A stretch of DNA of 64,000 nucleotides, from NCBI GenBank assembly GCA_903901055.1, contig CAIUPO010000008.1, forward strand, positions 4,799 through 68,798, written 5' to 3'. The stretch comes from an uncultured Bacteroidota bacterium (GTDB taxonomy: Bacteria; Bacteroidota; Bacteroidia; JABEUT01). Made by a program: the position numbers and the translations under genes. Below are positions 1 to 62,429 of this stretch, one piece after another (positions within the stretch are counted from its first letter, which is position 1; each line of letters opens with the position of its first letter). Below the pieces are notes generated by a model that saw only the letters and a list, made by a program, of their open reading frames with translations, did not search any database and had not been told where the DNA came from.

Positions 1-56
1 TAACTTTGCATGGTGAAGTTGAATAAATACACTTTGCCAAATATTCAAGACTTGCT

Positions 57-821
57 ATGAATGATAATTTGAAAAAGGCCCTTTTTGATTACCTCCTTTG
101 GATGGGCGACACAACTTTGGTGCTTGGTCACCGTATTTCGGAATGGTGCGGACATGGCCCCATTCTTGAAGAAGATATTGCATTAACTAATATTGCGCTT
201 GATTTACTTGGTGAGGCAAGGTTATACCTTACTTATGCCGGAGAAATAGAAGGCAAAGGCCGTTCAGAAGATGATTTGGCCTATTTGCGTGATGTTATGG
301 ATTACCATAATTCGCTTATTGCAGAACAACCCAATGGAGATTTTGCTTTTACCGTGATGAGGCAGTTTTTATTTACAGTATTCAATTACCATTTACAGGA
401 AGCCTTATTAACCAGTTCTGACGAGAGGATCCGCTCAATAGCTGAAAAGGCAATAAAGGAAGTTACCTACCATTTACGTCATTCTAAAGACTGGGTATTG
501 CGTTTGGGTGACGGTACGGAAGAAAGCCATAATAAGATTCAGGATGCGTTAAATAACATCTGGATGTATGTTGATGACATGTTCCTTACCCTTCCCGGTG
601 ATAAGGTTCTGGTTGATGAGAAGATTGTTCCTGAAATGGCAACTATAAAGAGCAAATGGCTTGAAACGGTAAAGAATATATTGGATGAAGCAACCTTAAA
701 ACTTCCTGCCGATGGATTTATGATGAAAGGTGGCAGGCAAGGTAAGCATGGCGAACATTTAGGTTTTATACTTGCTGAATTGCAGTATTTGCCCAGGGCA
801 TATCCGGGTACGAAGTGGTAA
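57..821 (+). CDS. paaC: 1,2-phenylacetyl-CoA epoxidase subunit C (PaaC)
   Basis: The 254-aa ORF aligns along its full length with E. coli PaaC. Shared motifs include LGDxxLVLxxRxxEWCGHxPxLEEDIALxNIxLDLLG, EQPNGDFA and the C-terminal GKHGEHLGxxLAELQYL. Confidence 0.9.
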   Translation: MNDNLKKALFDYLLWMGDTTLVLGHRISEWCGHGPILEEDIALTNIALDLLGEARLYLTYAGEIEGKGRSEDDLAYLRDVMDYHNSLIAEQPNGDFAFTVMRQFLFTVFNYHLQEALLTSSDERIRSIAEKAIKEVTYHLRHSKDWVLRLGDGTEESHNKIQDALNNIWMYVDDMFLTLPGDKVLVDEKIVPEMATIKSKWLETVKNILDEATLKLPADGFMMKGGRQGKHGEHLGFILAELQYLPRAYPGTKW

Positions 822-876
822 GTAAATAGAAAGTGTAAAGTGAAAGAGGCATCGTTATTGCAATAACGGAAAGTTA

Positions 877-1362
877 ATGAATAGCAAAGAAGAGATATTA
901 GGCTTTTTAGAAGAGGTTCCTGACCCGGAAATTCCGGTTGTGAATGTTCTCGATTTGGGGATTGTAAGGAGTGTTGAAGTTAATGCTGATGGCACGTTAG
1001 TAACCATAACCCCAACTTATACCGGATGCCCTGCTACACATATTATTGAAGACGATATTCGGAGCAAACTAACCGAAAAAGGGGTTGTTAATTTTAATAT
1101 TAAAACGATTTTGTCTCCAGCCTGGACAACTGACTGGATTAGCGAAGAGGGTAGGAGGAAGCTGAAAGAGTACGGCATAGCCCCTCCGGAAGAATCTACT
1201 TCCGATAAAAGCCGGTTAAGTGAAAACCCCAAGGTGGTTCATTGCCCAAGGTGTAAATCTACAAATACGGAAATGGTTAGCTTTTTTGGCTCTACACCTT
1301 GCAAAGCCCTTTACACTTGCAGTGATTGCAAAGAGCCTTTTGATTATTTTAAGTGCCTATAG
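877..1362 (+). CDS. paaD: 1,2-phenylacetyl-CoA epoxidase subunit D (PaaD), DUF59 plus C-terminal zinc ribbon
   Basis: IPDPEIPVxxxxDLGxVR and TPTYxGCPAT match PaaD. The C-terminal CPRCxS...STxCKALYxCxxCxEPFDYFKC matches the PaaD zinc ribbon. The gene lies 55 nt downstream of paaC. Confidence 0.9.
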   Translation: MNSKEEILGFLEEVPDPEIPVVNVLDLGIVRSVEVNADGTLVTITPTYTGCPATHIIEDDIRSKLTEKGVVNFNIKTILSPAWTTDWISEEGRRKLKEYGIAPPEESTSDKSRLSENPKVVHCPRCKSTNTEMVSFFGSTPCKALYTCSDCKEPFDYFKCL

Positions 1363-1471
1363 GGGTTTTAAAAGTACTCTCTTTGGCTTCTAATTCAATT
1401 GTAAATTTCGTTCCGTTATTCACTTCGCTGGTTAAGTTAATTGTTCCTCCAAGCGATTCAACTTGTAGTTT
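1349..1471 (-). other. Displaced C-terminal HATPase_c segment of the upstream histidine kinase (+1 frame), indicating a frameshift
   Basis: ORF 1349..1612 encodes ...KLQVESLGGTINLTSEVNNGTKFTIELEAK. This is colinear with the intact C-terminus KTQVEAMGGKITAKSNINKGTTVTIEFES of the paralog. The frames switch at GTTTAAA (about 1469-1475), which is consistent with one extra T. Confidence 0.7.
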
Positions 1472-3293
1472 AAACCATATACAGCCCAACACCTTTGCCA
1501 TTGATATGCGGATGAAAACGCTTATACAGGCCGAATAATTCTTCGCTTCTTCTGGGGATATCCATACCAAGCCCATTATCCTGAAAGGTAATTTGTATTT
1601 TGCCATCAACAAGTTTACTTTTAATATTAATGTGGGGAGTTAATGTGGCACGGCGGTATTTAATGCTGTTAAGCACCAGATTGTAAAAGATACTTGAAAT
1701 ATAACTTTTTACGGTAAACAATTCATTAATTTCAGAAAAATCGGATTCTATTAAAGCGTTTTCCTTTCTGATAATAGACCCTAAATTTATCTGGGTATCA
1801 AACAAAATACCAGACAATTCTAACATTTGCTTATGTTCATTGTCTTTAGTTCTAACGTCCAATATTTTATTCAAATCCATTACCACATCATCCAGTTTTC
1901 GTGCAGAAATGTGAATTGCCGACATTGCATCCTTCTTCTCTTCACCCTGAAAATTATTCAGGGTAAGGTTATCAACTAACCCGATAATATTAGCAATTGG
2001 CAAACGAAGGTTATGGGATATAATATAAGAAAATTGTTCTAAATCTTTATTACGTTCTAATAAATCGGTGGTTATTTTTTCCTTTTCAATTTCAACTATT
2101 TTTCTTTTCGTTATGTCGCTTAAGTATACAATCATGTGGTTTATTTTACCTGCATTCACTTTAACCGGCAGTAATTGCATTTCATACCACAATACCTTGC
2201 CATCTTTGAGGGTGTAATAGTCTTCCAGTTTAAATTTCTCGCCTTCAAAAACCCGTTTATACATATCAAGGGTTCTCTGTTTTTTATGCTCATCAATAAT
2301 ACCAATCATTTCCTTGCCAATTTCAAGGGTTTGACCTAATTCCTTGCTTAGTCCGTCAAGAGCACCTTTATTAAATGAAACAATCTTTAAATCGCTGTCT
2401 ACAAGAATAAATACGGTGGTGGTGTTATCAAAAACAGTTCGTAAATTAGCTTCCGATTCTCTTAATGCTTCCTCTTCAATTGCACGGTCAGTAATATCCT
2501 GAATAGTACCGATCATTTTTAACGGATTACCCAGCTTATCCTTAATAACCTCTCCACGTTCATGCACTATTCTTTCAATGCCATCAGGCCGTATTATCCT
2601 GTGGTCGAAATTATATAGTCTTTTATACAGAATGGCATCATTAAATTTTTTAATCAATAAATCACGGTCGTCAGGGTGAATAGTTTGTAATAAGTTAGTT
2701 CCATTCGGCTCAACTAATTCAGGGTCTAACCCTAAAATCCTGTATTTTTCCAACGACCAAAATTCATGTTTCCCCAGAAAGGAATCATTACCTGACAACA
2801 GGACTTCCCAACAACCAATGTGAGCGATTTGCTGCGAGGCAAGCAAACGGGCCTCACTTTGTTTCAGCTTCTCTTCTGTAAGTTTTCTGGATGTTACATC
2901 AAAATTAAATCCCATGGCATGAAGTGGCTCTCCATTATCATCTTTGTCAATTACCAATTCAGTTTCAAGATACCGGACCTGCTTTGTTGCATGATTAATA
3001 ATCCTGTGGTTAATCTTTTGGCTCGAAAGATTGTTGGTTCTAACTTCTTCTACAGCTTTCTTTACATATTCTAGATCATCCGGATGAACTTGTTTCAGCA
3101 TACTTTCAAATAAAGGAGGAACCTCACCCGGATTATAACCAATCATCCTGAAAGTTTCATCAGACCATTTCCCTTCTCCTGTTTTTAAATCCATTTGCCA
3201 GCTTCCTATATGGGCAAGCCTTTCCGTTACTTTTAACATAGCCTCATCGGGTGTAAGGTCTTTATTGTGAAAGATTTTCAGAGATTCTTCCAT
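1470..3293 (-). CDS. PAS/PAC-domain sensor histidine kinase with a frameshifted C-terminus. The reading frame continues in ORF 1349..1612.
   Basis: It has several PAS/PAC repeats, a HisKA motif (FSYIISHNLRLP) and a HATPase_c domain (N box and G boxes, GKGVGLYMV). It is about 70% similar to the downstream kinase across the PAS3-HisKA region. The ORF stops inside the ATPase domain. Confidence 0.8.
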   Translation of the reverse strand: MEESLKIFHNKDLTPDEAMLKVTERLAHIGSWQMDLKTGEGKWSDETFRMIGYNPGEVPPLFESMLKQVHPDDLEYVKKAVEEVRTNNLSSQKINHRIINHATKQVRYLETELVIDKDDNGEPLHAMGFNFDVTSRKLTEEKLKQSEARLLASQQIAHIGCWEVLLSGNDSFLGKHEFWSLEKYRILGLDPELVEPNGTNLLQTIHPDDRDLLIKKFNDAILYKRLYNFDHRIIRPDGIERIVHERGEVIKDKLGNPLKMIGTIQDITDRAIEEEALRESEANLRTVFDNTTTVFILVDSDLKIVSFNKGALDGLSKELGQTLEIGKEMIGIIDEHKKQRTLDMYKRVFEGEKFKLEDYYTLKDGKVLWYEMQLLPVKVNAGKINHMIVYLSDITKRKIVEIEKEKITTDLLERNKDLEQFSYIISHNLRLPIANIIGLVDNLTLNNFQGEEKKDAMSAIHISARKLDDVVMDLNKILDVRTKDNEHKQMLELSGILFDTQINLGSIIRKENALIESDFSEINELFTVKSYISSIFYNLVLNSIKYRRATLTPHINIKSKLVDGKIQITFQDNGLGMDIPRRSEELFGLYKRFHPHINGKGVGLYMV

Positions 3294-3460
3294 TATTATT
3301 TTATTAAAGTATTATTATTATTTACCTATATAAGTTTATGTAAAATACCTTATTATTAAATCATATTGTGTTATATAATTCTTAAAAATTACTGCATAAT
3401 TCACACATTTTGATTTCGGAAATTTGCAGCAAATTAATAAGGCTCAGCCAATAAACATAC

Positions 3461-3517
3461 GGGAGAAAGCCCCTTTCTTATATGGGAGTTTTACGGTACA
3501 AGAAAGGGTTTTCTCCC
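3461..3517 (-). terminator. Inverted repeat (GGGAGAAAGCCCCTTTCTT ... AAGAAAGGGTTTTCTCCC) downstream of the hybrid kinase gene. Putative terminator.
   Basis: The arms are 18-19 nt with a loop of about 20 nt, in the intergenic region 3' of the minus-strand gene that ends at 3572. The flanking sequence is U-rich on the minus-strand RNA. Confidence 0.35.
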
Positions 3518-3571
3518 CTTAAATTTAAGTAATGTGGTGGACAAAAGGATATTTAGTATAGTGCAAATATC

Positions 3572-5848
3572 TTATGATTCAAATTCAATGGTAACTGTTG
3601 TACCCTTGTTAATGTTGCTTTTAGCTGTTATCTTGCCACCCATGGCTTCAACCTGGGTTTTTACAATAAACAAACCTGCACCTTTACCATTAGTTTTAGG
3701 ATGGAAACGTTTGTATAACCCGAATAAATCTTTGCCATTTTTGTCCAGATCAATACCAAGTCCGTTATCACTAAATGATAGTTGAGATTTATTTCCAATC
3801 TTTTTACTTTCGATTATGATATGAGGTGTTAAAGAAGGCTGACGGAATTTTATGCTATTTGAAATAAGGTTGTAAAAAATACTCGACATAAAACTTTTAA
3901 CCGCGAACAATTCATCAATTTCAGAAAAATCAGCATCAATTATTGCATTGTCTTTTTTTATTGCAAAACCCAGCTTTACCTTCGAATCGAAAAGAATATC
4001 CCATAATTTAACTTGCTGTTTACTTTCCATTTCCTTCGTTCTTAAGTCGAGGATTTTATTCAGGTCAATAACTACATCATCTAAGGCCCGCACAGAAACG
4101 TACAAAGCAGAAATTACATCACCAAGTTCCTCTTTCGGAAGCTGGGCAATGTTGAAATTCTCGATTAACCCCATAATGTTGGCAACAGGCAAACGCAGGT
4201 TGTGAGAAACAATATAAGAGAACTGTTCCAGGTCTTTATTACGCTGAATAAGGTCGGCTGTTATTTTTTCTCGTTCAATTTCTGCCAACTTCCTTTCTGT
4301 TATATCCCTTAAATAAAATAGCATATTTAATACTTGGTTATTCTCGCCATAAACAGGCAGAAGCTGCATATAATACCAGTAAATTGAACCATTTTTTAAT
4401 AGTATGCTATCCTCCAGCTTAAATTGCTCCCCCTCAAAAACCCTTTTATACATGCCTATTGCCCTGGATTTCCTATCTTCCATAATGTAGTCAAGAATAT
4501 TGCTGCCCATTAGCAAGTTTTTACCTGCAAGTTTTTCAAAACTATCAACTGCAGCCTTATTAAATAAAGCCACTTCTAATTCTTTATTTACAAGTATAAA
4601 ACTGGTAGTTGTATTATCAAAAATAGTGCGCAAATTGGCCTCCGATTTTCGAAAAACTTCCTCTTCCTCCTTTCTTGCTGTAATATCTTGTGTAGTACCA
4701 ATTATTTTTAAAACCTTGTTGGTTTTTTTGTCCGTAATAAGTTCTCCACGGGTGTGTACAATTTTTTTTGTTTTATTGGGAAGTATAACCCTGTAATCCA
4801 AATTGAACAATTTTACTTTTTCAATGGACTCCATAAATCTTTCCATTAGCAGTTGCCGGTCTTGCGGATGAACCAATTCCATAAATTCGGGCCATTGTAG
4901 GGGTTTAGTTATTGAATCTAATCCGAAAATCTTGTAAAGTTCATCCGACCAATAGGTGGGATTTCCAGCCTCATTCATGCCATCGGTAAAATCAATTTCC
5001 CAACTACCAATGCCTGCAAGTTTTTGAGAGGCGAGAAGGTGCCTTTTTTTTAGTATAATTTTCTCTTGTGCTAGTTTTTCAGCTGTAATATCATGATGGA
5101 AACCTGATACTTTAATTGGGTTCCCATTTTCATTATGCTCATACATCACCACAGTTTGCATGTACTTTATCTCGTGTGTTTTATCGTCAATTATCCGGGC
5201 TTCAAATTTTCTTGAATGGGGTTCAAATTGTTTAGCATCCTGAATGTTTTTTTTAACCCTTTCAAGGTCATCCGGGTGAACGCACTTTAAAAAGTTTTGT
5301 AATCCGGGTTCAATTTCGCCCGGTGTATAACCAAGCATACGGAAAGTTTCATTTGACCAGTTGGCTTTGCCTTTTATAAAATCAAATTGCCAGCCACCCA
5401 CATGGGCAAATGTTTCTGTTTGTTGTAAAAGCTGCTCCCTTTTCTTATGCGTTAATTTATTGCGGTCACTCCGTGACCGATAAAGCGCATTTGTCAATAA
5501 TATAGGCAAGTGCTGCAGGTGGTCTTTTAGCAGGTAATCATAACCACCTTCCTTTATCACCTCTAATGCTAAATCTTCCGACTTATTATTGGTTAGGATG
5601 ATAAAGGGTCGTTTTGTAGCATGGGCTTTTACGATAGCTAATGCTTCCTTAGCATCGAGGGAGGGCAGACAGTATTCTGAAATTATAATATCAGGCTTGA
5701 AATTAATAAGGTTCAATTTGAAATCCTCCTTATTAGAAACTACTTTTAAATTGAATTTTATTGTACTTTTTTGTAATTCATTCTCTATTAATTGGATATC
5801 TAATGGATTATCTTCGAGCAATAGAATTTTAGTTGTTTGATTTTGCAT
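3572..5848 (-). CDS. Hybrid response-regulator / PAS sensor histidine kinase (N-terminal REC, PAS/PAC repeats, HisKA, HATPase_c)
   Basis: The N-terminus is a REC domain (ILLLEDNPLD...D-box, K). Then come PAS/PAC repeats, HisKA (FSYIVSHNLRLPVAN) and a complete HATPase_c ending TVTIEFES. It is a paralog of the adjacent kinase. Confidence 0.85.
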   Translation of the reverse strand: MQNQTTKILLLEDNPLDIQLIENELQKSTIKFNLKVVSNKEDFKLNLINFKPDIIISEYCLPSLDAKEALAIVKAHATKRPFIILTNNKSEDLALEVIKEGGYDYLLKDHLQHLPILLTNALYRSRSDRNKLTHKKREQLLQQTETFAHVGGWQFDFIKGKANWSNETFRMLGYTPGEIEPGLQNFLKCVHPDDLERVKKNIQDAKQFEPHSRKFEARIIDDKTHEIKYMQTVVMYEHNENGNPIKVSGFHHDITAEKLAQEKIILKKRHLLASQKLAGIGSWEIDFTDGMNEAGNPTYWSDELYKIFGLDSITKPLQWPEFMELVHPQDRQLLMERFMESIEKVKLFNLDYRVILPNKTKKIVHTRGELITDKKTNKVLKIIGTTQDITARKEEEEVFRKSEANLRTIFDNTTTSFILVNKELEVALFNKAAVDSFEKLAGKNLLMGSNILDYIMEDRKSRAIGMYKRVFEGEQFKLEDSILLKNGSIYWYYMQLLPVYGENNQVLNMLFYLRDITERKLAEIEREKITADLIQRNKDLEQFSYIVSHNLRLPVANIMGLIENFNIAQLPKEELGDVISALYVSVRALDDVVIDLNKILDLRTKEMESKQQVKLWDILFDSKVKLGFAIKKDNAIIDADFSEIDELFAVKSFMSSIFYNLISNSIKFRQPSLTPHIIIESKKIGNKSQLSFSDNGLGIDLDKNGKDLFGLYKRFHPKTNGKGAGLFIVKTQVEAMGGKITAKSNINKGTTVTIEFES

Positions 5849-6170
5849 TTTGCGATTGATAGATGTTCATTTTATACATATAGTATTATGTTTGTTAGAG
5901 TTAATTATCTTATTTAATCTTTAAATTACACAGTGCAAAGGGAATACGATTAAAGCTGCATTTCCATGATTCACATCAACTTAATATGTGAGTATTGTCA
6001 TGTTTTTCAGCACAGGTTCTTGAATCCCTTTATTAGATTCGTTTATAAGGAATTATATTAAATAAATAATACTATTTAGATATTCATTTTTTATTTAAAA
6101 ATCTACTGAAAAAATGATCTGGATCAGCATTTTAATAGTATTTAATTTTAAACCTTTATCTTTGAGAATT

Positions 6171-6944
6171 ATGAGTAACATACTTTTTTCAATAAATAAC
6201 GGTGTAGGCAAAATTGTGCTTAACCGCCCTGATGTACTGAATAGTTTCAATCTGGCTATGGCTAAAGAAATGCAGGCAGCCCTTGATGATTGTGCTGCAA
6301 GCCCTAATGTGCGAAGCGTATTGATAACAGGGGAGGGGAGGGCCTTTTCGGCTGGGCAAGATTTGGCAGCAGCTAATGAACCGGGAGTTGAAATACTTGA
6401 GATTGTTAAAGAGCAATACAATCCAATTATTCTAAAACTAAGACAACTGGAAAAGCCTGTTGTTTGTGCAGTTAACGGCGTTGCTGCCGGCGCTGGCGCC
6501 AATATTGCATTTGCCTGTGATATTGTTTTGGCGGCTTCATCGGCCAGTTTTATACAAGCATTCAGTAAAATAGGATTGATACCGGATAGCGGAGGAACAT
6601 TCTTTTTACCTCGATTGATTGGCCTGCAACGCGCAACTGCATTAATGATGCTGGGTGATAGAGTTACAGCCCAGCAAGCTATGGAGTATGGAATGATTTA
6701 TAAAGTGCATCCGGATGAAAGCCTGATGGCAGAAGCTGAGAAAATGGCTTTGCAACTGGCATCTATGCCTACGAAAGGCTTAGGTTATACTAAAAGATTA
6801 CTGAATGCATCGCTATCGCATAATTTGAATGAACAACTGCTAATGGAAGGTGAAATGCAGGCGGCAGCTGCTAAAACTTATGACCACAAAGAAGGTGTGA
6901 ACGCCTTTCTGGAAAAAAGAAAACCTGTTTTTAAAGGTGAGTAA
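6171..6944 (+). CDS. paaG: Enoyl-CoA hydratase/isomerase of the PaaG type (1,2-epoxyphenylacetyl-CoA isomerase)
   Basis: This is a crotonase fold with close colinearity to E. coli PaaG (NRPxxLNSFN, FSAGQDL, KPVxCAVNGVAAGAGA, KEGVxAFLxKRxPxF). The ORF opens at 6114, but the start was set at the internal ATG at 6171 (MSNILFS). Confidence 0.8.
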   Translation: MSNILFSINNGVGKIVLNRPDVLNSFNLAMAKEMQAALDDCAASPNVRSVLITGEGRAFSAGQDLAAANEPGVEILEIVKEQYNPIILKLRQLEKPVVCAVNGVAAGAGANIAFACDIVLAASSASFIQAFSKIGLIPDSGGTFFLPRLIGLQRATALMMLGDRVTAQQAMEYGMIYKVHPDESLMAEAEKMALQLASMPTKGLGYTKRLLNASLSHNLNEQLLMEGEMQAAAAKTYDHKEGVNAFLEKRKPVFKGE

Positions 6945-6972
6945 ACAAGGTAGAACTAAGATAAAGTAAACT

Positions 6973-7368
6973 ATGAAGTGCAGAATAGTAGTTATTATCT
7001 TAATATTTTTTGCTTCTGATTTTTTTGTCTCCTGCGGAGGCGTAATTATGCCCGACGTAGATGAAAGCCGCCAGTATGTGCAAGCTCATCCCGATTGTAT
7101 TTTGGGTTTGTATAGTAATTATTATACAGATGGAATTGTAAATACTCTTCAATTAAATTCCGACAGTACGTACGTGCATAAGTATAAAAAGGGCGATAAT
7201 TGGGTTTTAAGCAAAGGTGAATGGGGCATCACCGGATATGATCACAGTGGATTTGTTAAGATTGAATTGAGAGATTGGGGAAGTTCTGTTAGTGAGGGAG
7301 GTGAAGAGGGAATAGGTGCTTTTGGAACAATAATATTGGACTGTAATGAGATTGATATAAATGACTAG
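6973..7368 (+). CDS. Hypothetical small lipoprotein
   Basis: It has a signal peptide with a lipobox-like FVSC. I found no recognisable domain. Confidence 0.4.
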   Translation: MKCRIVVIILIFFASDFFVSCGGVIMPDVDESRQYVQAHPDCILGLYSNYYTDGIVNTLQLNSDSTYVHKYKKGDNWVLSKGEWGITGYDHSGFVKIELRDWGSSVSEGGEEGIGAFGTIILDCNEIDIND

Positions 7369-7521
7369 GAACGAAAGAAAAATTTCTTCAAAAGTAAACC
7401 GGGCGAATTTTAATATTGCGGGAGAACCTTGTTTTATGTGATATTAAAAAGAGAAGGTAAACAAGAATTATAACTACAAGTCAAATGTAATATCTTTGCC
7501 GCATTAAAGATAAAAGATAAC

Positions 7522-9399
7522 GTGTGCGGAATTTGTGGAATTATAGGGTTAAAGGATAAAGAGATTGCTGAAAAAAGCATCTCCCTTATGAATGCTGCCA
7601 TTGCACACAGGGGGCCGGATGATGAAGGCTCATTTATTGATAATGGAATTGGTCTTGGGCATCGTCGGCTCTCTATTATTGACCTTTCGGCTAATGGCCA
7701 TGAGCCTATGTTTTCCAATGATGGAAGGTTTGCTTTAGTTTATAACGGCGAACTCTATAATTTTAAAACGCTCCGCCTTGAACTTCAGCGGTCGAAGGTG
7801 GGCGATACTGAACCTGCTTATTCTTTCCGCACACAAAGCGATGCGGAGGTTATCATTGCGGCGTATCAGCGCTGGGGGGCTGAATGCCTGAAGTATTTTA
7901 ACGGCATGTATGCTTTCGCTATTTGGGATAAGCAAGAAGAAGAATTATTTATTGCTAGGGACAGATTAGGTATTAAGCCACTCTATTACTGGCAAGGCGA
8001 CGATAAAATTGTTTTTGCATCGGAAATAAGGGCATTACTTAAAAGTAACCTTGTACCACGAAAGCTTGATAAAAGCGCGCTTTGCGATTATATTACTTTC
8101 CAAACAGTGCATGCGCCTGCAACAATAGTTGAGGATGTTGAAATGCTGTTACCGGGCCATTATCTGCTAATTAAAAGGAGTGAAGCAAATGTTCCGGTCA
8201 AACAACAAAAATATTGGGCTTTGCAGGATATTGCTTTGCAATCGCCTGTTAAGCCATACGAGCAAATTTGTAAAGATGTAAAAGAGTTGTTTTTTGCATC
8301 GGTAGAGCGCAGGCTGGTTTCAGATGTTCCTTTCGGAGCATTTTTGTCCGGTGGAATAGATTCAAGTTTGGTTGTGGCCGCTATGTCGCAACTAATGCGG
8401 GAAAAGGTTAGGACTTTTTCGGTAAGCTTTGAAGAGTCGGAATTCAGTGAAGCTCCTTATGCAGCGCAAGTAGCCAAGCAATACAATGCAGAACATCATG
8501 AAATAAAATTGTCGCTGAAGTTGTTTCTTGAAAAACTACCCGAAGCCATGAGCGCGCTGGACCATCCAAGCGGCGACGGAATGAACAGTTACATAGTTTC
8601 GGAAGCAACTAAAAATGCCGGAATTACTATGGCTTTATCGGGGCTTGGCAGTGATGAATTATTTGCAGGATATCCATTATTCAAGCGATTATATAAGTTA
8701 GAGAAATGGAAATGGGTATCGGGATTTCCCTTTATCTCATTACCATTTTATGCAATGAATTTAGTGAAGCATTCCGCAACTTCGGCCAAGTTATTGGAAA
8801 TGGCAAAACTGCCCAATTGGGAACTGAAGAATACGTATCCGTTAACCCGTAGGAATATGATGGTTAATGAAGCAATGCAGTTGTTAACGCCGGGTGCATC
8901 ATTTGATAAAGTTTTAAATATCAATCCTAAACACGGCATTTTATCTAAAATAACTGTTGCTGAACTTAGTAATTACCTACCTGATATTTTATTGAGAGAT
9001 ACAGACCAAATGAGTATGGCCCATGCTTTGGAGGTGAGGGTGCCATTTTTAGATTACACCCTGGTAGAATATATCATTGGCTTACCCGATAATGTTAAAT
9101 ATCCGCATACAACAAAGAAATTGCTTACTGATTCAATGAAAGGGTTGTTGCCCGAGAACATTATCAACCGCAAAAAAATGGGATTCACATTTCCATGGAG
9201 TGTATGGATGAGGAATGATTTGAAGCCCTTTTGTGAAAGCAATATATATAGTCTTTCGGAACGTGAATATTTCAATAAAAATAATTTGCAATCTTTGTGG
9301 CAACGTTTTTTACAAGGAAATCCCCGAACTCCGTGGTATAAGTTATGGCATTTGGTGGCGCTTGAGAATTGGATAAAAGAGAATAAGATAGATGCCTAA
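7522..9399 (+). CDS. asnB: Asparagine synthetase B-type glutamine amidotransferase
   Basis: The N-terminal MCGICG marks a class II glutamine amidotransferase Cys. SGGIDSS is the PP-loop of the synthetase domain. The gene is 625 aa. Confidence 0.85.
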   Translation: MCGICGIIGLKDKEIAEKSISLMNAAIAHRGPDDEGSFIDNGIGLGHRRLSIIDLSANGHEPMFSNDGRFALVYNGELYNFKTLRLELQRSKVGDTEPAYSFRTQSDAEVIIAAYQRWGAECLKYFNGMYAFAIWDKQEEELFIARDRLGIKPLYYWQGDDKIVFASEIRALLKSNLVPRKLDKSALCDYITFQTVHAPATIVEDVEMLLPGHYLLIKRSEANVPVKQQKYWALQDIALQSPVKPYEQICKDVKELFFASVERRLVSDVPFGAFLSGGIDSSLVVAAMSQLMREKVRTFSVSFEESEFSEAPYAAQVAKQYNAEHHEIKLSLKLFLEKLPEAMSALDHPSGDGMNSYIVSEATKNAGITMALSGLGSDELFAGYPLFKRLYKLEKWKWVSGFPFISLPFYAMNLVKHSATSAKLLEMAKLPNWELKNTYPLTRRNMMVNEAMQLLTPGASFDKVLNINPKHGILSKITVAELSNYLPDILLRDTDQMSMAHALEVRVPFLDYTLVEYIIGLPDNVKYPHTTKKLLTDSMKGLLPENIINRKKMGFTFPWSVWMRNDLKPFCESNIYSLSEREYFNKNNLQSLWQRFLQGNPRTPWYKLWHLVALENWIKENKIDA

Positions 9400-57848: not shown

Positions 57849-58514
57849 TCAAGAAGCTAATGCGTTTAACCAAAGCACCAGATAAACGATAAACATAATT
57901 AAGAAAACGAAACTTAATACAGCAAAAATGCAACCAAATTCCCCTTGGGTGGTGGTGGCTGTGGCCCAGTCAGTCGTTCCAAATAATGCGCCGCAAATGA
58001 AAAATAAGCCAAGCAAAACAATCCACAGCGTTAAGTATTTCCCTTTTTTAGAATCGTCGTGCTTGTAAATATGGTCATTATGACCTGCATAAGGGTCGTT
58101 TAAGGAGTTCTCTTTTTGAGAAATAGTTGTAGTTGTAAATGTATTTGTGCTTTTTGCAATGGCTGTTGCCTGTTGTACTCCTTTTTTATCAGTGGTTTCA
58201 TTCGCCCCCGCAGTTGATGTCATTTCTTTAAAAAGGGCTTTACCCAACCTTGCTGTTCGCTTAATAAATGAAAGGGTTTCTCCCGTCTCCTTTGCCATGT
58301 TGGATTCAGTATTTACAGTAATATCAGGGCCTCCGCTAGTATAGGCTGTATTCACTTTGGGAACAGGTTCAAAAAAATGGCCCTTGGTATATTTCCTTTT
58401 TCCAAATGAAGTGACAGTATTATAGGTTGTGCAATATGAAAACAACACAACTGTTAATAATAAGCAAAGGAGTTTAAAATAAGTCCCCGGCTTAATAAAG
58501 TGGTTGGAATCCAT
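57849..58514 (-). CDS. Paralog family member (signal/lipobox, TSFGKRKYTKGHFF, low-complexity linker, C-terminal TM hairpin)
   Basis: LLCLLLTVVLFSYCTTYNTVTSFGKRKYTKGHFFEPVPKVNTAY. NDPYAGHNDHIYKHDDSKKG precedes two C-terminal TM helices ending ...ILWL. The upstream box is TTGTACTAAAA. Confidence 0.6.
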   Translation of the reverse strand: MDSNHFIKPGTYFKLLCLLLTVVLFSYCTTYNTVTSFGKRKYTKGHFFEPVPKVNTAYTSGGPDITVNTESNMAKETGETLSFIKRTARLGKALFKEMTSTAGANETTDKKGVQQATAIAKSTNTFTTTTISQKENSLNDPYAGHNDHIYKHDDSKKGKYLTLWIVLLGLFFICGALFGTTDWATATTTQGEFGCIFAVLSFVFLIMFIVYLVLWLNALAS

Positions 58515-58565
58515 TGTTTAATGAAATTTTAGTACAACGAACTAATAATGGTTTCTTACCCTTTC

Positions 58566-59240
58566 CTAGGAGGATAATGACACCACCCAAAGTATAAAGA
58601 ATACTATTGTACCAATAAGCGAAAGCAGCAGTAAAAGCCCGAAAATACAACCTGTACCGGCGGTAGAGTTGTTATTTACATTGGCTGTATCGGCCCAGTT
58701 TACAAACAAAAGAACCAACAGAAGCGAAAGGGCAAGGCAAATAAGCCATCCGGCTAAAAAAGTTCCCTGCTTTGAATCGTCGTGCTTATAAACATGGTTA
58801 TTCTGCCCTACATAAGGGTCGTTGGAGGAGCTCTCTTTCTTCGAAACGTTTTCTGTTGCAACAGGGCTAGTACTTTTTGCAATGGTTGCGGCCTCCTCTA
58901 TTGCTTTTTTATGGGTACTTTCCTTTACAGTAGCAGTAGTTGCCGGAGCGGTAAAAATGGCTTTCACCGCATTTGTGGTGTTCGTAATCAGGCTTTTATT
59001 AAAGCTAACTTCATTCTGAGGGTTGGCTTCCGATTTTACGGTTGTATTCTGGCTGCCTGCATTGTATGCAGTATTAATTTTAGGTACCGATTCGAAAAAA
59101 TGGCCTTTGGTGTATTTCCTCTTTCCAAAGGAAGAAGCCACATTATTATAGGTTGTACAATATGAAAACAGTACAACTGTAAGGGATAAACAAAGGAATT
59201 TTGCAAAATTCCCGGCCTTGAAAAAATGGTTTGAACTCAT
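58566..59240 (-). CDS. Paralog family member
   Basis: FLCLSLTVVLFSYCTTYNNVASSFGKRKYTKGHFFESVPKINTAY. NDPYVGQNNHVYKHDDSKQG is followed by a TM hairpin. The upstream box is TTGTACTTTAGCC. Confidence 0.6.
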   Translation of the reverse strand: MSSNHFFKAGNFAKFLCLSLTVVLFSYCTTYNNVASSFGKRKYTKGHFFESVPKINTAYNAGSQNTTVKSEANPQNEVSFNKSLITNTTNAVKAIFTAPATTATVKESTHKKAIEEAATIAKSTSPVATENVSKKESSSNDPYVGQNNHVYKHDDSKQGTFLAGWLICLALSLLLVLLFVNWADTANVNNNSTAGTGCIFGLLLLLSLIGTIVFFILWVVSLSS

Positions 59241-59399
59241 TAATTAGTAGTGTTTAAGTGGCTAAAGTACAAAACTTATTTAATCTGCAATAAATTTTTA
59301 TTTGAATAGCAAGCCAATCTTAATTCCCTTAGCCTCAAATAAAAAAGGGCTTTGAGTTTTTATACCCAAAGCCCCTTTTAATAGTGCTATTATGAATCC

Positions 59400-60107
59400 T
59401 TACTTGGAAATATCAACCAACCAAAGGATGAAGAACACAATAGATACAATAAAGCATATCCATCCGATTAGGCCAAAAAGTACCGCTAATCCGAAACTGC
59501 CCGCACTACCGGTAGTAGCAGTTCCAACTGCAAAAACAATTTCCAGCAAAATACATATCAGCCAAATAGCAAGGAAAAGCAAACACATTTTTAAATAGTG
59601 GTTCATGCCAGAATCACTACTGCTGCTGCCATGCTCATTATATCCTGCTTGCGAATTAGTGGAGTTTTCTTTCAAGGAAACATTGTTACTGCTTAGTGAA
59701 AGTGTAGTTGAACCGGATGAGATTGAAAGCCCGCTTGATTTAGACAAGTTAATATTCAACAAACCATGCTTTGCTTTGGTAACTGAATTGGTTGCAGCCA
59801 CTGGAGCGGTTGCTTTGTTATCAGAAGTTGCAACGGTTGTGGTATTAGAATTAAATTTTTGAACAGCAGGGGTGTTTTTAGTATCCACACCTTTAGGTTG
59901 TGCAATTGCTAAAGCAGGGCCGGCAGGTTTATAATTGGTTTTAACTTTCGCAACCGGGTCAGAGAAATGCCCATGGGTATATTTCCTCTTTCCAAAGGAA
60001 GAGGCTACTTTATTGGAGGATGTGCAGGATGCTAAAAACCCTACAGTTACAAAGACAAGCGCTGCAGGGACAAGGTTTCTCAACTTCGAAGAGATGGATG
60101 TTTTCAT
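59400..60107 (-). CDS. Paralog family member
   Basis: LASCTSSNKVASSFGKRKYTHGHFSDPVAKVKTNY. The linker is Ser/Thr/Ala-rich. The C-terminal TM hairpin ends ...FFILWLVDISK. The upstream box is TTGTACTTTAGCC. Confidence 0.6.
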   Translation of the reverse strand: MKTSISSKLRNLVPAALVFVTVGFLASCTSSNKVASSFGKRKYTHGHFSDPVAKVKTNYKPAGPALAIAQPKGVDTKNTPAVQKFNSNTTTVATSDNKATAPVAATNSVTKAKHGLLNINLSKSSGLSISSGSTTLSLSSNNVSLKENSTNSQAGYNEHGSSSSDSGMNHYLKMCLLFLAIWLICILLEIVFAVGTATTGSAGSFGLAVLFGLIGWICFIVSIVFFILWLVDISK

Positions 60108-60189
60108 TCTGGGTGTTTTAATATTTTATTGGGAGGCTAAAGTACAATTTTTTTGAAATGGAATACAAATGGCAACGGTTACTGTTTTA

Positions 60190-60858
60190 TTAAATTGAAA
60201 CAAGCCACAAAATAAGGTATATCACTCCTACTACGCCAAATAGGATTGCTCCCCATAACATAAGGCAGCCCAAGCAACCGCTGCCACCTAAATTTGCCAA
60301 GAGCAGCAGCAGGTAAAACGTCATGGCTAAAAGTAAGCAAGAAAGCGCATAAATAAAGCGAGTACCGGATCTTGCTGATTTCCCTTCATCATAGCTTGAA
60401 CCGCTAATTTCATTTGAATTATCTTGTTTGGCATTAATTGTTTCAGTAAAGGAACTCCTTGCTTTATCCAGAAATGGAGGTTTGCTTAAAAATAAAGCTC
60501 CTGAAGATATGGCTGCAATAATTGGTGTGATCTTATGTGTAAAGGCAACTTTGTTTTCTGTTGGCATTTTTAACAGGGTATAGTTTGAATCAAAAGTGGA
60601 ACCAACTCTTCTATCAGTTGCAATCTTGATGGCCTCCCCCCCTTTTGTTTCATTGGAAATAGAAATGGGTGTACTTCCAGGATTAAATTTCGTCCTGACT
60701 TTTCCGATAGGGTCGGAAAAATGGCCCTTGGTATACTTTCTCTTTCCAAAAGAAGCTGTTTTTATTGAAGAGGTACAAAAGGATAACAGGTTAACCACAC
60801 AAAACAACAAGAGTAGGTAAAATACTTTTTTACTGTTGTCCAAATAGTGAGATTTCAT
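60190..60858 (-). CDS. Paralog family member
   Basis: LLSFCTSSIKTASFGKRKYTKGHFSDPIGKVRTKF. The C-terminal TM hairpin ends ...IYLILWLVSI. The upstream box is TTGTACATTG. Confidence 0.6.
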   Translation of the reverse strand: MKSHYLDNSKKVFYLLLLFCVVNLLSFCTSSIKTASFGKRKYTKGHFSDPIGKVRTKFNPGSTPISISNETKGGEAIKIATDRRVGSTFDSNYTLLKMPTENKVAFTHKITPIIAAISSGALFLSKPPFLDKARSSFTETINAKQDNSNEISGSSYDEGKSARSGTRFIYALSCLLLAMTFYLLLLLANLGGSGCLGCLMLWGAILFGVVGVIYLILWLVSI

Positions 60859-61136
60859 AAAGGGTATTATTTATCAAAATTAAGATGACAATGTACAATT
60901 ATTATTAAATGACCAATTGAACCGATAAAAAGAATGTTTCAACAGCACATTCCCTCTGTTCATCTATTTTTCTTTTGAATGCGTTGATTCAGTTGGTAAT
61001 TTAAGGTTAGTAAAAACCTATTCTATACCAATATGTGAATAATGGAAAATTACCATGAGATTATATAAGAGCCATGGTTTTAAGGGAAGCTAACTTGCAA
61101 ACTAAAATCAAATAAATCACTTTAACACCTACCATT

Positions 61137-61766
61137 ATGAAACCTTCACACCGTACTTTCGCACTTTACACGGCATTTATGCTTTGTATTACCCCTGCGG
61201 TCTTTAGTCAGAGTGGTTCCGATGAGACCATATTTGGTAAAGGCTCAAATGTAATAAGCCTTGGCGTTGGAATTGGTGGAGCCTATACCTATTATGGCGA
61301 TGGCTATACTTCTACCCCTAATTTTGTAATCTCTTATGATAATGGCACATTTGGCAATGTTGGGCCTGGCACAATTAGCCTAGGTGCACTATTCGCATAC
61401 AAGGGAATAGCCTATAGCTATACCGATTTTTATTCCCGTTATAATTACGACCAAAAATGGAACTACTATATCCTCGGTGTTCGTAGCGCTTATCATTTAA
61501 GTATTCCAAGTGTACCAAGGTTCGATCCATACATTGGCATTATGCTGGCTTATTATGATATAAGCTATAAAGAGACTAGCACCGACCCGTTTTTTAATGT
61601 ACCCGGAAGTCCCTATTATTATTACTATTCCAATAGCTACGCAAGTTACATGGCTTTCAGTCTTTATATAGGTGCCAGGTATTTTGTAAGCGACCATATA
61701 GGCTTCTGGCTCGAGCTTGGATATGGCTATTCAAATGCAGCACTCGGCATAAGTTTCAAGCTATAA
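61137..61766 (+). CDS. Outer-membrane beta-barrel domain protein (Tyr/Gly-rich)
   Basis: It has a signal peptide. Amphipathic Y/G-rich strands alternate, and the C-terminus ends with an aromatic or hydrophobic residue (LGISFKL). Confidence 0.55.
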   Translation: MKPSHRTFALYTAFMLCITPAVFSQSGSDETIFGKGSNVISLGVGIGGAYTYYGDGYTSTPNFVISYDNGTFGNVGPGTISLGALFAYKGIAYSYTDFYSRYNYDQKWNYYILGVRSAYHLSIPSVPRFDPYIGIMLAYYDISYKETSTDPFFNVPGSPYYYYYSNSYASYMAFSLYIGARYFVSDHIGFWLELGYGYSNAALGISFKL

Positions 61767-61778
61767 TCAGAAGGTTTT

Positions 61779-62429
61779 ATGAAATCATTCAGGTTTTTTC
61801 TGGTTTTAGTAACAGCGCTTTTAAGCGGAAACAAAGGGATAGCACAAACAGAGATTAATGATGATTATTATAAACCGGCAAAGAGTCGACCTGTTTATTC
61901 AGAAAGCTCAAACCTGATTTATGCCGGAATTGGAGAGGGCGGATATTACCCCTATTCCGGATTAAGATATACCCAGAAACCCAATATCACTTTAATTTAC
62001 GAACGTGTTATATTCAAACACTTAGGCCCTGGAACATTAAATGCAGGGCCCTTACTTTCATTTAAAAATATTGCAAGCCAGTATTTAGATTATAATACAG
62101 GATTTAAATATGAACAGCGTTGGAATTATTATCACATAGGGGCCCGACTGGCCTACAATTTACATATTTTTCCGGGTAATTCAATTGTGCCTTATGCAGG
62201 TGCTATGATAGGCTACTATATCACCGATTTTAAATTTAGCAGTAATGACCCTAATTATTCCGATCCAACTGACCCCGCTTACTATCTGACAACGAATAGA
62301 TACCCCGATTTTTTTGCCATGAGTATTTTAGCCGGCATTCGCTCTACAATGGGTTACCATACAAGTGTTTGGCTGGAACTTGCTTATGGTTATTCTTCAG
62401 TTTCATTTGGTGTTTGTTATAGCCTGTAA
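61779..62429 (+). CDS. Outer-membrane beta-barrel domain protein, paralog of the upstream gene
   Basis: It has a signal peptide and the same strand pattern (WLELAYGYSSVSFGVCYSL). It lies 12 nt downstream of its paralog. Confidence 0.55.
   Translation: MKSFRFFLVLVTALLSGNKGIAQTEINDDYYKPAKSRPVYSESSNLIYAGIGEGGYYPYSGLRYTQKPNITLIYERVIFKHLGPGTLNAGPLLSFKNIASQYLDYNTGFKYEQRWNYYHIGARLAYNLHIFPGNSIVPYAGAMIGYYITDFKFSSNDPNYSDPTDPAYYLTTNRYPDFFAMSILAGIRSTMGYHTSVWLELAYGYSSVSFGVCYSL

What the first reader, a model, noticed from the sequence alone, without database searches (positions are those of the whole stretch)
57..6944. Phenylacetate catabolic cluster split by a tandemly duplicated pair of PAS sensor kinases on the opposite strand
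paaC and paaD (57-1362) and paaG (6171-6944) are co-oriented, but no paaE follows paaD. Instead, two paralogous PAS-PAS-PAS-HisKA-HATPase kinases, about 70% identical over the C-terminal half, sit between them on the minus strand. One has an N-terminal REC domain (a hybrid kinase). The other is frameshifted. No cognate DNA-binding response regulator lies nearby. These may be orphan kinases inserted into, or regulating, the paa pathway and possibly sensing aromatic compounds. The duplication followed by decay of one copy looks evolutionarily recent.
Basis: partly seen in the sequence, partly recalled or inferred. Interest (0 to 1): 0.5.

Follow-up and report, generated by a model that had tools for sequence, protein, structure and literature searches.

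The report
PAS kinase array inside orphan paaCD-paaG remnant
Two old paralogous sensor-kinase genes, one newly broken by a single extra base, sit inside a three-gene leftover (paaC, paaD, paaG) of the phenylacetate pathway in an uncultured Bacteroidia lineage; this is an ordinary gene-order variant, and its oddest feature is that paaC and paaD have no paaA or paaB beside them.

Summary
paaC (57-821), paaD (877-1362) and a paaG-like isomerase gene (6171-6944) flank two paralogous minus-strand PAS histidine kinases. KinA (3572-5848) has an N-terminal receiver. KinB (1349-3293) carries a frameshift. No other receiver domain lies within 74 kb.

Several details and much of the interpretation need correcting:
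- This is not a paa cluster. Only paaC, paaD and paaG are present in the window, the 10 kb upstream and eleven related loci. Flavobacteriales relatives carry paaK-E-A-B-C-D-G-H-I-J-Y-Z.
- The missing paaE after paaD is normal for Bacteroidota, where paaE lies upstream of paaA. The unusual part is the missing paaA and paaB.
- The three paa genes are under strong purifying selection (dN/dS about 0.05).
- The kinases were inserted at an ancestral paaD-paaG junction, which is 6-9 nt wide in kinase-less relatives. Copy number then varied from 0 to 3.
- The duplication is old. KinA and KinB are 51% identical overall and 58% in the C-terminal half, and KinB groups with paaD-side kinases of other genomes.
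- Only the frameshift is recent. It is one extra T, identical in three assemblies, and the sister species has an intact gene.
- KinA is not a hybrid kinase. Its receiver has Glu in place of the phospho-acceptor Asp.
- Nothing here links the kinases to phenylacetate.

Interest is low to moderate.

The parts
57..821 (+). paaC, the non-catalytic structural subunit of phenylacetyl-CoA epoxidase. There is no paaA or paaB upstream.
   Evidence: TIGR02158 at 292 bits (cutoff 133) and PF05138 at 318 bits. 45% identical to E. coli PaaC. It lacks the PaaA EAGH iron motif, like other PaaC proteins. dN/dS against the sister species is 0.052. The upstream neighbour is a Dph6-like gene.
877..1362 (+). paaD, made of an Fe-S-assembly-like domain and a PaaD zinc ribbon.
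   Evidence: TIGR02159 at 204 bits (cutoff 108), plus PF01883 and PF23451. dN/dS 0.045.
1349..3293 (-). KinB, a cytoplasmic PAS_3-PAS_3-PAS-DHp-HATPase histidine kinase gene disrupted by a +1 frameshift. The first frame (1470-3293) gives 607 aa. The remaining 40 codons continue in another frame to 1349 and overlap the paaD 3' end by 14 nt.
   Evidence: ORFs, domains, repaired 647-aa product. 84% identical to the intact 646-aa sister orthologue P0009. Phospho-acceptor His427 lies in SHNLRLP, and the N, G1, F and G2 boxes are present.
1470..1476 (-). Frameshift site. The minus strand reads GG TTT AAA, where the sister species reads GG TT AAA. The extra T creates the TAA stop at 1470-1472, directly after the G2 box.
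   Evidence: Alignment of the window, L001, L055, L057, L058 and L003. The same base is present in assemblies from samples ERZ27313604 and ERZ27313605, with 0 mismatches over 5-10 kb. The 607-aa product occurs on at least 8 contigs.
3452..3527 (-). Strong hairpin about 45 nt after the KinA stop codon, followed by GUAUGUUUAUU. It is a likely terminator that separates the KinA and KinB transcription units.
   Evidence: Inverted repeat I1. RNA fold of -31.7 kcal/mol, z-score -3.3.
3572..5848 (-). KinA, an intact 758-aa cytoplasmic kinase: REC (aa 8-109), PAS_3, PAS_3, PAS (405-516), DHp (His549 in SHNLRLP) and HATPase (653-756).
   Evidence: No hydrophobic segment. 68% identical to sister orthologue P0002.
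5675..5677 (-). Codon for Glu58 of KinA, at the position of the receiver phospho-acceptor Asp (CheY D57).
   Evidence: Alignment with CheY and 25 homologous N-terminal receivers. Only KinA and its orthologue P0002 have Glu, while 23 of 25 have Asp. The DD, T and K positions are retained.
5849..6170 (.). AT-rich divergent intergenic region between KinA and paaG. It holds a candidate Bacteroidota -7 box, TATCTTTG, at 6157-6164.
   Evidence: TAnnTTTG sits 14 nt before the paaG ATG in the window, L003/L057, L004, L005 and L056. It is absent in kinase-less L006 and L008, where paaG abuts paaD. Its role as a promoter is inferred.
6171..6944 (+). paaG-like crotonase-family isomerase gene. The true start is the ATG at 6171, not the one at 6114.
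   Evidence: TIGR02280 at 314 bits (cutoff 345) and PF00378 at 225 bits. Orthologues start at the same Met. dN/dS 0.055.

Best explanation
The locus is a three-gene relic, or a relocated block (paaC-paaD-paaG), of the twelve-gene Flavobacteriales-type phenylacetate cluster. It is kept under purifying selection in a clade of uncultured Bacteroidia.

In one sub-lineage, a gene for a soluble PAS sensor histidine kinase was inserted on the opposite strand between paaD and paaG. The kinase belongs to a Bacteroidota subfamily whose H-box reads SHNLRxP. The gene then duplicated in tandem early on and has since gone through repeated gain and loss:
- Copy number ranges from 0 to 3.
- KinA gained a receiver domain.
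- Relatives replaced N-terminal PAS domains with coiled-coil repeats.
- The L005 paaD-side kinase changes tree position between domains, which suggests gene conversion with its neighbour.

In this strain KinA is intact. By inference, it autophosphorylates on His549 in response to whatever its three PAS domains sense, then passes the phosphoryl group to an unlinked response regulator. Its N-terminal receiver has Glu58 in place of the phospho-acceptor Asp. It therefore cannot be phosphorylated and probably acts as a fixed-state or protein-interaction module (inferred).

KinB was recently inactivated by one extra T. This removes the last 40 residues of the ATP-binding domain.

The insertion separated paaG from paaCD. 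paaG now appears to have its own promoter at the edge of the insertion (inferred).

The kinases are most likely neighbours of the paa genes by descent, not their dedicated regulators.
For: paa relic:
- tblastn with all 14 E. coli Paa proteins finds only paaC, paaD and paaG in the window, L001 and nine clade loci. Outgroups L022 and L034 carry the full set. L058 and L066 show the same neighbours in their called-gene tables.
- All 46 outgroup loci have paaB directly upstream of paaC, and 45 of them also have paaA there.
- dN/dS is 0.045-0.055 for paaC, paaD and paaG at dS of about 1.

Insertion:
- paaD and paaG are 6-9 nt apart in L006 and L008.
- Kinase-less L007 and L008 are basal in the PaaC+D+G tree, with L006 next.
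- All locus kinases are monophyletic at 100% bootstrap.
- Seven sets of close homologues sit at the same paaD/paaG locus.

Old duplication:
- 51% identity and dS of 2.45.
- A paaD-side clade has 86-90% support in PAS3.

Copy number of 0 to 3.

Recent frameshift. dN/dS of KinB codons 304-647 is 0.108, so the gene was constrained for most of its history.

Glu58. Glu is the commonest replacement at this position in pseudo-receivers and can mimic phosphorylation (PMC12632262).

SHNLRxP is the family norm: 77 of 91 motif matches among 120 homologues.

No other receiver within 74 kb.

Candidate paaG promoter. Terminator-like hairpin between the kinases.
Against: - No complete genome was available, so it is unknown whether paaA, B, E and K exist elsewhere. 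I searched for them without result.
- The position of kinase-less L006 relative to L059 is unresolved. L006 may have lost the kinases rather than never having had them.
- Orthology of KinA with the paaG-side kinases of L004, L005, L056 and L059 has weak support (6-42%).
- The kinase array persists beside paaCD/paaG in every kinase-bearing lineage. This is also what a functional link would produce.
- All relatives are MAGs or metagenome contigs. L003 shows a collapsed or rearranged KinB compared with L057 from the same species.
- Kinase activity, signal and partner are all inferred.
Confidence: 0.7

Rival explanations
1. The kinases are dedicated regulators of the paaCD/paaG module. Their PAS domains sense an aromatic or CoA-thioester signal, and they control the divergent KinA-paaG promoter region through an unlinked response regulator.
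For: - The array is retained between paaD and paaG in at least seven diverged lineages, even though synonymous sites are saturated.
- The paaG-proximal kinase and paaG share a divergent intergenic region. It contains a conserved TGAYC-N-rich-TCA element about 45-55 nt upstream of paaG in five lineages.
- One metagenome contig (L076) has a LuxR-type response regulator converging on an orphan paaE-paaA pair.
Against: - No response regulator lies within 74 kb.
- Kinase-less relatives L006, L007 and L008 keep the same Dph6-paaC-paaD-paaG arrangement (and asnB except in L006), so the module does not need the kinases.
- The unrelated flanking genes (Dph6-like, asnB, GT1) are just as syntenic in most of these loci, so descent explains the linkage.
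- P0007, 66.5% identical to KinB, sits between transketolase and ychF with no paa gene nearby.
- L076 cannot be tied to this clade, and the response-regulator neighbour is not seen in L071 or L078.
- To my knowledge, the described paa regulators are PaaX and TetR-type repressors, which are the regulators tallied in PMC2653477.
Confidence: 0.18
2. The KinB frameshift does not inactivate the gene. Either it is an assembly or sequencing artefact, or it is bypassed by +1 ribosomal slippage at GUU UAA A (P-site tRNA shifting onto UUU next to a stop codon, as at the prfB CUU UGA C site), so that full-length KinB is still made.
For: - The 40 codons after the shift are fully open and still resemble the sister tail.
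- The site is a U-run immediately before a stop codon.
- KinB codons 304-647 show purifying selection (dN/dS 0.108).
Against: - The same extra T is present in three separately assembled samples and on at least 8 contigs, within a run of only 3 T.
- No intact allele exists in a collection of about 15 billion protein sequences.
- The sister species encodes the protein in a single frame, so recoding is not ancestral.
- A valine tRNA re-pairing from GUU to UUU would have a first-position mismatch, and no stimulatory element is apparent (inference).
- The open tail and the low dN/dS are both expected if the mutation is simply young.
Confidence: 0.08
3. paaC, paaD and paaG are dead relics of a lost pathway, and the whole region is drifting.
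For: All other paa genes are missing from the neighbourhood. The PaaG score falls slightly below its equivalog cutoff.
Against: - All three reading frames are intact in the clade loci examined, with dN/dS of 0.045-0.055 at dS of about 1 or more.
- The PaaC and PaaD scores are far above their cutoffs.
Confidence: 0.04

Closest known systems
Phenylacetyl-CoA epoxidase operon paaABCDE and the Flavobacteriales-type cluster paaK-E-A-B-C-D-G-H-I-J-Y-Z
   Same: PaaC and PaaD are clear equivalogs. The paaC-paaD-paaG order is the one seen in Flavobacteriales relatives.
   Different: paaA, paaB, paaE and all downstream pathway genes are missing from the neighbourhood. In a survey of 25 clusters, paaC was always in an operon with paaA, paaB and paaD (PMC2653477). 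Here, kinase genes on the opposite strand also break the paaD-paaG junction.
Bacteroidota 'PAS domain S-box' sensor histidine kinases with an SHNLRxP H-box, many with an N-terminal receiver (REC-PAS-HK)
   Same: The domain order, the H-box with Asn after the phospho-acceptor His, a soluble cytoplasmic build and an optional N-terminal receiver all match.
   Different: KinA and KinB belong to a small, tight clade (at least 51% identical) that is 100% supported against outside homologues, most of which are no more than about 45% identical over comparable stretches. In seven of eight contexts examined, members of this clade sit at the paaD/paaG locus. KinA's receiver has lost the phospho-acceptor Asp.
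Pseudo-receiver / aspartate-less receiver (ALR) domains
   Same: The KinA receiver has Glu at the D position but keeps the acidic pair, the Thr and the Lys. Glu is the most frequent substitution in such domains (PMC12632262; PMC4395418).
   Different: Here the pseudo-receiver is the N-terminal input module of a histidine kinase, not part of a response regulator. The change is very young: it is shared only with one sister species, while 23 of 25 homologous receivers keep Asp.
Classical hybrid histidine kinases (for example ArcB, TorS, EvgS) and FixL
   Same: They share PAS, DHp and HATPase modules. There is weak partial similarity to the FixL, ArcB and LvrA models.
   Different: All scores are far below the family cutoffs (for example FixL 123 bits against 850). 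There is no C-terminal receiver, no HPt domain and no phosphorylatable Asp, so neither kinase is a hybrid kinase or a member of these families.

Membership tests
paaABCDE phenylacetyl-CoA epoxidase operon | PaaC equivalog present | tested here: met
   TIGR02158 at 292 bits, cutoff 133.
paaABCDE phenylacetyl-CoA epoxidase operon | PaaD equivalog present | tested here: met
   TIGR02159 at 204 bits, cutoff 108.
paaABCDE phenylacetyl-CoA epoxidase operon | paaA and paaB in the same operon as paaC and paaD (25 of 25 clusters in PMC2653477) | tested here: not met
   tblastn with E. coli PaaA and PaaB finds nothing in the 64-kb window or the 10 kb upstream. The upstream gene is Dph6-like. The same holds in the related clade loci.
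paaABCDE phenylacetyl-CoA epoxidase operon | Reductase gene paaE in the cluster | tested here: not met
   No PaaE hit in the window, L001 or the clade loci. In the outgroups it lies upstream of paaA.
paaABCDE phenylacetyl-CoA epoxidase operon | paaA, paaB and paaE present anywhere in the same genome | not testable with these tools
   No whole genome was available. Homologue and metagenome searches could not be tied to this organism.
PaaG (1,2-epoxyphenylacetyl-CoA isomerase) | Score at or above the TIGR02280 equivalog cutoff | tested here: not met
   314.3 bits against a cutoff of 345.15. It is still the best-scoring family.
PaaG (1,2-epoxyphenylacetyl-CoA isomerase) | Positional orthology: the gene directly after paaD in related paa clusters | tested here: met
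   55-60% identical to the gene that follows paaD in at least 16 Flavobacteriales loci. It is adjacent to paaD in L006, L007 and L008.
HisKA-type sensor histidine kinase | Phospho-acceptor His in a DHp H-box | tested here: met
   His549 in KinA and His427 in KinB, both within FSYI(V/I)SHNLRLP.
HisKA-type sensor histidine kinase | Pfam HisKA gathering score, and an acidic residue after the His | tested here: not met
   KinB scores 22.5 bits against a cutoff of 26.9, and KinA has no hit. The residue after His is Asn, as in 77 of 91 motif matches among the homologues. This is therefore a divergent DHp subfamily.
HisKA-type sensor histidine kinase | Complete HATPase_c domain with N, G1, F and G2 boxes | tested here: met
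   Met for KinA: 56 bits over profile positions 5-107 of 111, with all boxes present. For KinB the domain is cut at profile position 80 of 111, directly after the G2 box.
Hybrid histidine kinase | Receiver domain downstream of the kinase core, with a phosphorylatable Asp | tested here: not met
   The REC is N-terminal (aa 8-109) and has Glu58 at the acceptor position.
Pseudo-receiver / ALR domain | Receiver fold that lacks the phospho-acceptor Asp | tested here: met
   PF00072 at 41 bits. D57 is replaced by E, while the E/D pair, T and K are retained.
Mobile element or genomic island insertion | Flanking direct or inverted repeats, or integrase/transposase or tRNA genes at the borders | tested here: not met
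   There are no repeats at the borders. The only long direct repeats are the two kinase genes themselves, 2189 nt apart and 73-74% identical. No mobility gene was found among the ORFs scanned.

The most novel reading that the evidence does not exclude
This Bacteroidia clade runs a split phenylacetyl-CoA epoxidase. In this reading, paaC-paaD-paaG is an autonomous, selected module kept apart from paaE-paaA(-paaB), which breaks the otherwise invariant paaABCD operon. The fast-evolving PAS kinase array embedded in the module would then provide two-component control of it, possibly through a response regulator encoded beside the orphan paaE-paaA half, as in contig L076. To my knowledge that mode of paa regulation has not been described. 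A variant reading is that PaaC, PaaD and PaaG have taken on a role that does not need PaaA at all.
Probability: 0.08. Interest if true: 0.55.

Novelty: new variant of a known kind. Interest (0 to 1): 0.27.

Why it matters
If the reading above is right, the locus is a small, well-documented example of three things:
- A histidine-kinase gene can land inside a catabolic operon, duplicate, swap its N-terminal sensor modules and then lose copies again, all within one clade.
- A receiver domain can lose its phospho-acceptor Asp to Glu very recently, with a dated outgroup to compare against.
- The paaABCD unit, reported as invariant in 25 of 25 clusters, can be broken. PaaC and PaaD remain under strong selection without adjacent PaaA and PaaB.

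None of this changes how the phenylacetate pathway or two-component signalling is understood. The practical value is for annotation. PaaC and PaaD hits alone should not be read as a phenylacetate degradation cluster in these genomes. KinB should be annotated as a pseudogene, and KinA should not be called a hybrid kinase.

Tried and rejected
Search for paaA in the same organism:
- A homologue search with the nearest outgroup PaaA returned 8000 hits. The top 120 could not be assigned to this organism, and none shared its contig lengths of 112,092, 86,419 or 280,093 bp.
- Five candidate PaaA contexts (P0180, P0230, P0212, P0179, P0176) all turned out to be other organisms with ordinary paaABC(D) clusters.
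- A metagenome scan with PaaA gave 80 loci. It revealed orphan paaE-paaA pairs (L076, L071, L078) and a paaE-TetR-paaA-paaB locus with no paaC (L100). None could be tied to this clade.

Other checks that led nowhere:
- A DNA search of E. coli genomes with paaC found no match.
- Rfam over 1-8000 returned only a chance mir-184 hit far below threshold.
- The sigma-70 promoter and terminator scan was barely above shuffled expectation (37 promoter-like sites against 27 expected, 4 terminator-like against 5.5). It is not suited to Bacteroidota promoters, so I did not use it.
- No mobile-element signature appears at the borders of the insertion.
- Candidate response regulators among the roughly 200-235-aa ORFs at 57849-62429 and elsewhere had no REC domain.
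- PaaC has not regained a PaaA-like di-iron site: there is no EXXH at the EAGH position.
- The truncated KinB in MAG L003 looked at first like an independent second decay event. Contig L057 from the same species carries an intact 646-aa KinB plus a third, 892-aa kinase. L003 is therefore probably a collapsed or rearranged assembly, and I did not count it as evidence.
Full report
**What is in the sequence.**
- The plus strand of 1-7000 encodes PaaC at 57-821 (TIGR02158, 292 bits, cutoff 133). It also encodes PaaD at 877-1362 (TIGR02159, 204 bits, cutoff 108).
- A crotonase-family protein at 6171-6944 hits PaaG best (TIGR02280, 314 bits), just under the cutoff of 345.
- Two long ORFs lie between them on the minus strand.
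- KinA (3572-5848, 758 aa) reads REC, PAS_3, PAS_3, PAS, DHp, HATPase.
- KinB (1470-3293, 607 aa) has the same order without the REC and stops inside the ATPase domain. The missing C-terminus continues in another frame down to 1349.
- Neither kinase has a hydrophobic segment, so both are cytoplasmic.
- Downstream of paaG come a small lipoprotein-like ORF, asnB and glycosyltransferase genes. No further paa genes follow.

**The frameshift.** On the minus strand the window reads ATGGTTTAAAC, where the sister species reads ATGG-TTAAAT. That is one extra T at 1472-1474, and it creates a TAA stop directly after the G2 box.
- Removing one T gives a 647-aa protein. It is 84% identical to the intact 646-aa sister orthologue P0009.
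- The extra T is present in contigs assembled from two other samples, which are otherwise identical to the window over 5-10 kb.
- The truncated product is on record from at least 8 contigs.
- The mutation is therefore real and fixed in the sampled population, and it arose after the split from the sister species.
- dN/dS for KinB codons 304-647 is 0.108, so the gene was under constraint for most of that time.

**The paa context is not a cluster.** An ENA contig identical to the window extends 10 kb upstream. The gene before paaC is a Dph6-like ATP-pyrophosphatase gene, not paaB.
- tblastn with all 14 E. coli Paa proteins finds only paaC, paaD and paaG. This holds for the 64-kb window, the upstream 10 kb and nine loci from related genomes. 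Two further related loci, L058 and L066, show the same neighbours in their called-gene tables.
- Flavobacteriales relatives carry paaK-E-A-B-C-D-G-H-I-J-Y-Z.
- Among the 46 outgroup Bacteroidota loci recovered with PaaC, all have paaB directly upstream of paaC and 45 also have paaA. In 33 of them paaE lies upstream of paaA, and in none does paaE follow paaD.
The unusual feature is the missing paaA and paaB.
- A published survey found paaC in an operon with paaA, paaB and paaD in 25 of 25 clusters (PMC2653477).
- The three remaining genes are not decaying. dN/dS against the sister species is 0.052 for paaC, 0.045 for paaD and 0.055 for paaG, at dS of about 1 or more.
- PaaC is an ordinary non-catalytic PaaC without the PaaA EXXH iron motif.
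- I infer that its partners are encoded elsewhere in the genome, but I could not show it.

**The kinases were inserted, and the array is old.**
- Clade members L006, L007 and L008 have no kinase. In L006 and L008, paaD and paaG are 6-9 nt apart.
- Other members have one kinase (L004), two (window, L005, L056, L059, L066) or three (L057). The kinases always lie between paaD and paaG and always on the opposite strand.
- In a PaaC+PaaD+PaaG tree, the kinase-less L007 and L008 are basal and L006 branches next. The position of L006 relative to L059 is unresolved.
- All locus kinases form one group with 100% bootstrap support against the nearest outside homologues. Apart from short partial matches, outside homologues drop to about 45% identity or less. 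This points to one insertion followed by diversification in place.
- KinA and KinB are 51% identical overall: PAS1 43%, PAS2 42%, PAS3 54%, DHp 64%, CA 57%, and 58% over the C-terminal half. dS between them is saturated at 2.45.
- KinB groups with the paaD-side kinases of L005, L056 and L059 rather than with KinA (86-89% bootstrap in PAS3, 82% with L005 in PAS1-2). The duplication therefore predates lineages whose PaaC is only about 78% identical. It is not recent.
- N-terminal modules have been exchanged freely. KinA and its sister orthologue carry a REC. The paaG-side kinases of L004, L005, L056 and L059 do not. Several paaD-side kinases replace PAS1 and PAS2 with tandem 21-residue coiled-coil repeats.
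- One KinB-type homologue (P0007, 66.5% identical) lies at an unrelated locus.

**Features of the kinases.**
- Both have the H-box FSYI(V/I)SHNLRLP, with His549 in KinA and His427 in KinB.
- Asn after the His is the norm in this Bacteroidota subfamily: 77 of 91 motif matches among 120 homologues. This explains the weak or absent Pfam HisKA score.
- The KinA REC aligns with CheY so that D57 corresponds to Glu58. The acidic pair, the Thr and the Lys are kept.
- Of 25 homologous N-terminal receivers, 23 have Asp. Only KinA and its sister orthologue have Glu.
- This makes the domain a pseudo-receiver. Glu is the commonest substitution in such domains and can mimic the phosphorylated state (PMC12632262).
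- KinA is not a hybrid kinase. There is no C-terminal receiver and no phosphorylatable Asp.

**Transcription units (inferred).**
- A strong hairpin follows the KinA stop codon (-31.7 kcal/mol, z-score -3.3). It probably terminates KinA before KinB.
- The restored KinB reading frame overlaps the paaD 3' end by 14 nt, as it does in the sister species.
- In five kinase-bearing lineages a TAnnTTTG motif sits 14 nt before the paaG ATG. This is the Bacteroidota -7 box consensus as I know it. It is absent where paaG abuts paaD. paaG seems to have gained its own promoter when the insertion cut it off from paaCD.

**Regulatory link to phenylacetate.**
- A receiver HMM built from 27 sequences finds only the KinA REC in the window plus 10 kb upstream. 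Pfam scans of the other ORFs found no response regulator.
- Kinase-less relatives keep the same Dph6-paaC-paaD-paaG arrangement.
- The unrelated flanking genes are just as syntenic in most of these loci. Persistent linkage is therefore explained by descent.
- I rate a dedicated regulatory role at about 0.18.

**Unresolved.** I could not determine whether the genome holds paaA, paaB and paaE elsewhere.
- The searches did show that orphan paaE-paaA pairs without paaB, C, D or G exist in other Bacteroidota-like contigs (L076, L071, L078). One of them lies next to a LuxR-type response regulator.
- Split epoxidase gene sets are therefore plausible. None of these contigs can be tied to this clade.

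**Verdict.**
- Supported: the kinases were inserted, they are a tandem pair, and one copy is broken.
- Not supported: an intact paa cluster, a recent duplication and a hybrid kinase.
- Untested: any phenylacetate-related function of the kinases.
- The locus is a lineage-specific gene-order variant built from known parts. It has two mildly unusual features: selected paaC and paaD without paaA and paaB, and a very young Asp-to-Glu pseudo-receiver.
- Interest: 0.27.

Noticed in passing
window 57849-60858 (-) and 61137-62429 (+): Four tandem paralogous putative lipoprotein genes (221-235 aa, 25-49% identical, shared SFGKRKYTKGHF motif) are followed by two tandem paralogous secreted-protein genes (209 and 216 aa, 38% identical). 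None has a significant Pfam match; one has only a sub-threshold DUF2207_C hit.
   Followed up: partly
window 6973-7368 (+): A 131-aa lipoprotein-like ORF lies between paaG and asnB and has no family hit. It is absent from the same position in relatives L003-L008.
   Followed up: partly
L057 7134-9812; proteins P0018, P0020, P0021: The paaD-side kinases of relatives carry about 6-12 tandem copies of a 21-residue repeat (AAELIIANKELAFQNxEKEKR) in place of the first two PAS domains. The sister species has a third, 892-aa kinase of this type at the locus.
   Followed up: partly
window 57-821 (PaaC, column aligned to E. coli PaaA D126): An Asp is conserved at this position in E. coli PaaA, E. coli PaaC and the outgroup PaaC proteins. 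It is Thr in the six clade PaaC sequences aligned, all from loci that lack adjacent paaA and paaB.
   Followed up: no
L076 6869-9595; L071 1562-3642; L078 6052-8906; L100 1089-5096: Metagenome contigs carry paaE-paaA but no paaB, C, D or G in the 2.6-8 kb downstream. In L076 a LuxR-type response regulator (REC plus GerE) converges on paaA. L100 has paaE-TetR-paaA-paaB followed by a VanY gene and no paaC. These are possible counterparts of orphan paaCD loci.
   Followed up: partly
L003 11346-12841 versus L057 7134-11941: MAG L003 and contig L057 are from the same species, with identical PaaC. They differ at the kinase array. L003 joins the N-terminus of the 892-aa middle kinase to the C-terminal half of KinB, which is either an assembly collapse or a real deletion.
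   Followed up: partly
L001 1795-8437 (upstream of the window): Three paralogous genes encoding PTL_trimer/Gly_rich_2 proteins (447-795 aa) lie upstream of the Dph6-like gene. Similar arrays occur in relatives L057 and L059.
   Followed up: no
window 12873-50108: The region is dense in type IX secretion cargo genes (CHU_C or Por_Secre_tail C-terminal domains) next to an asnB and glycosyltransferase polysaccharide cluster. This fits a Bacteroidota origin.
   Followed up: no
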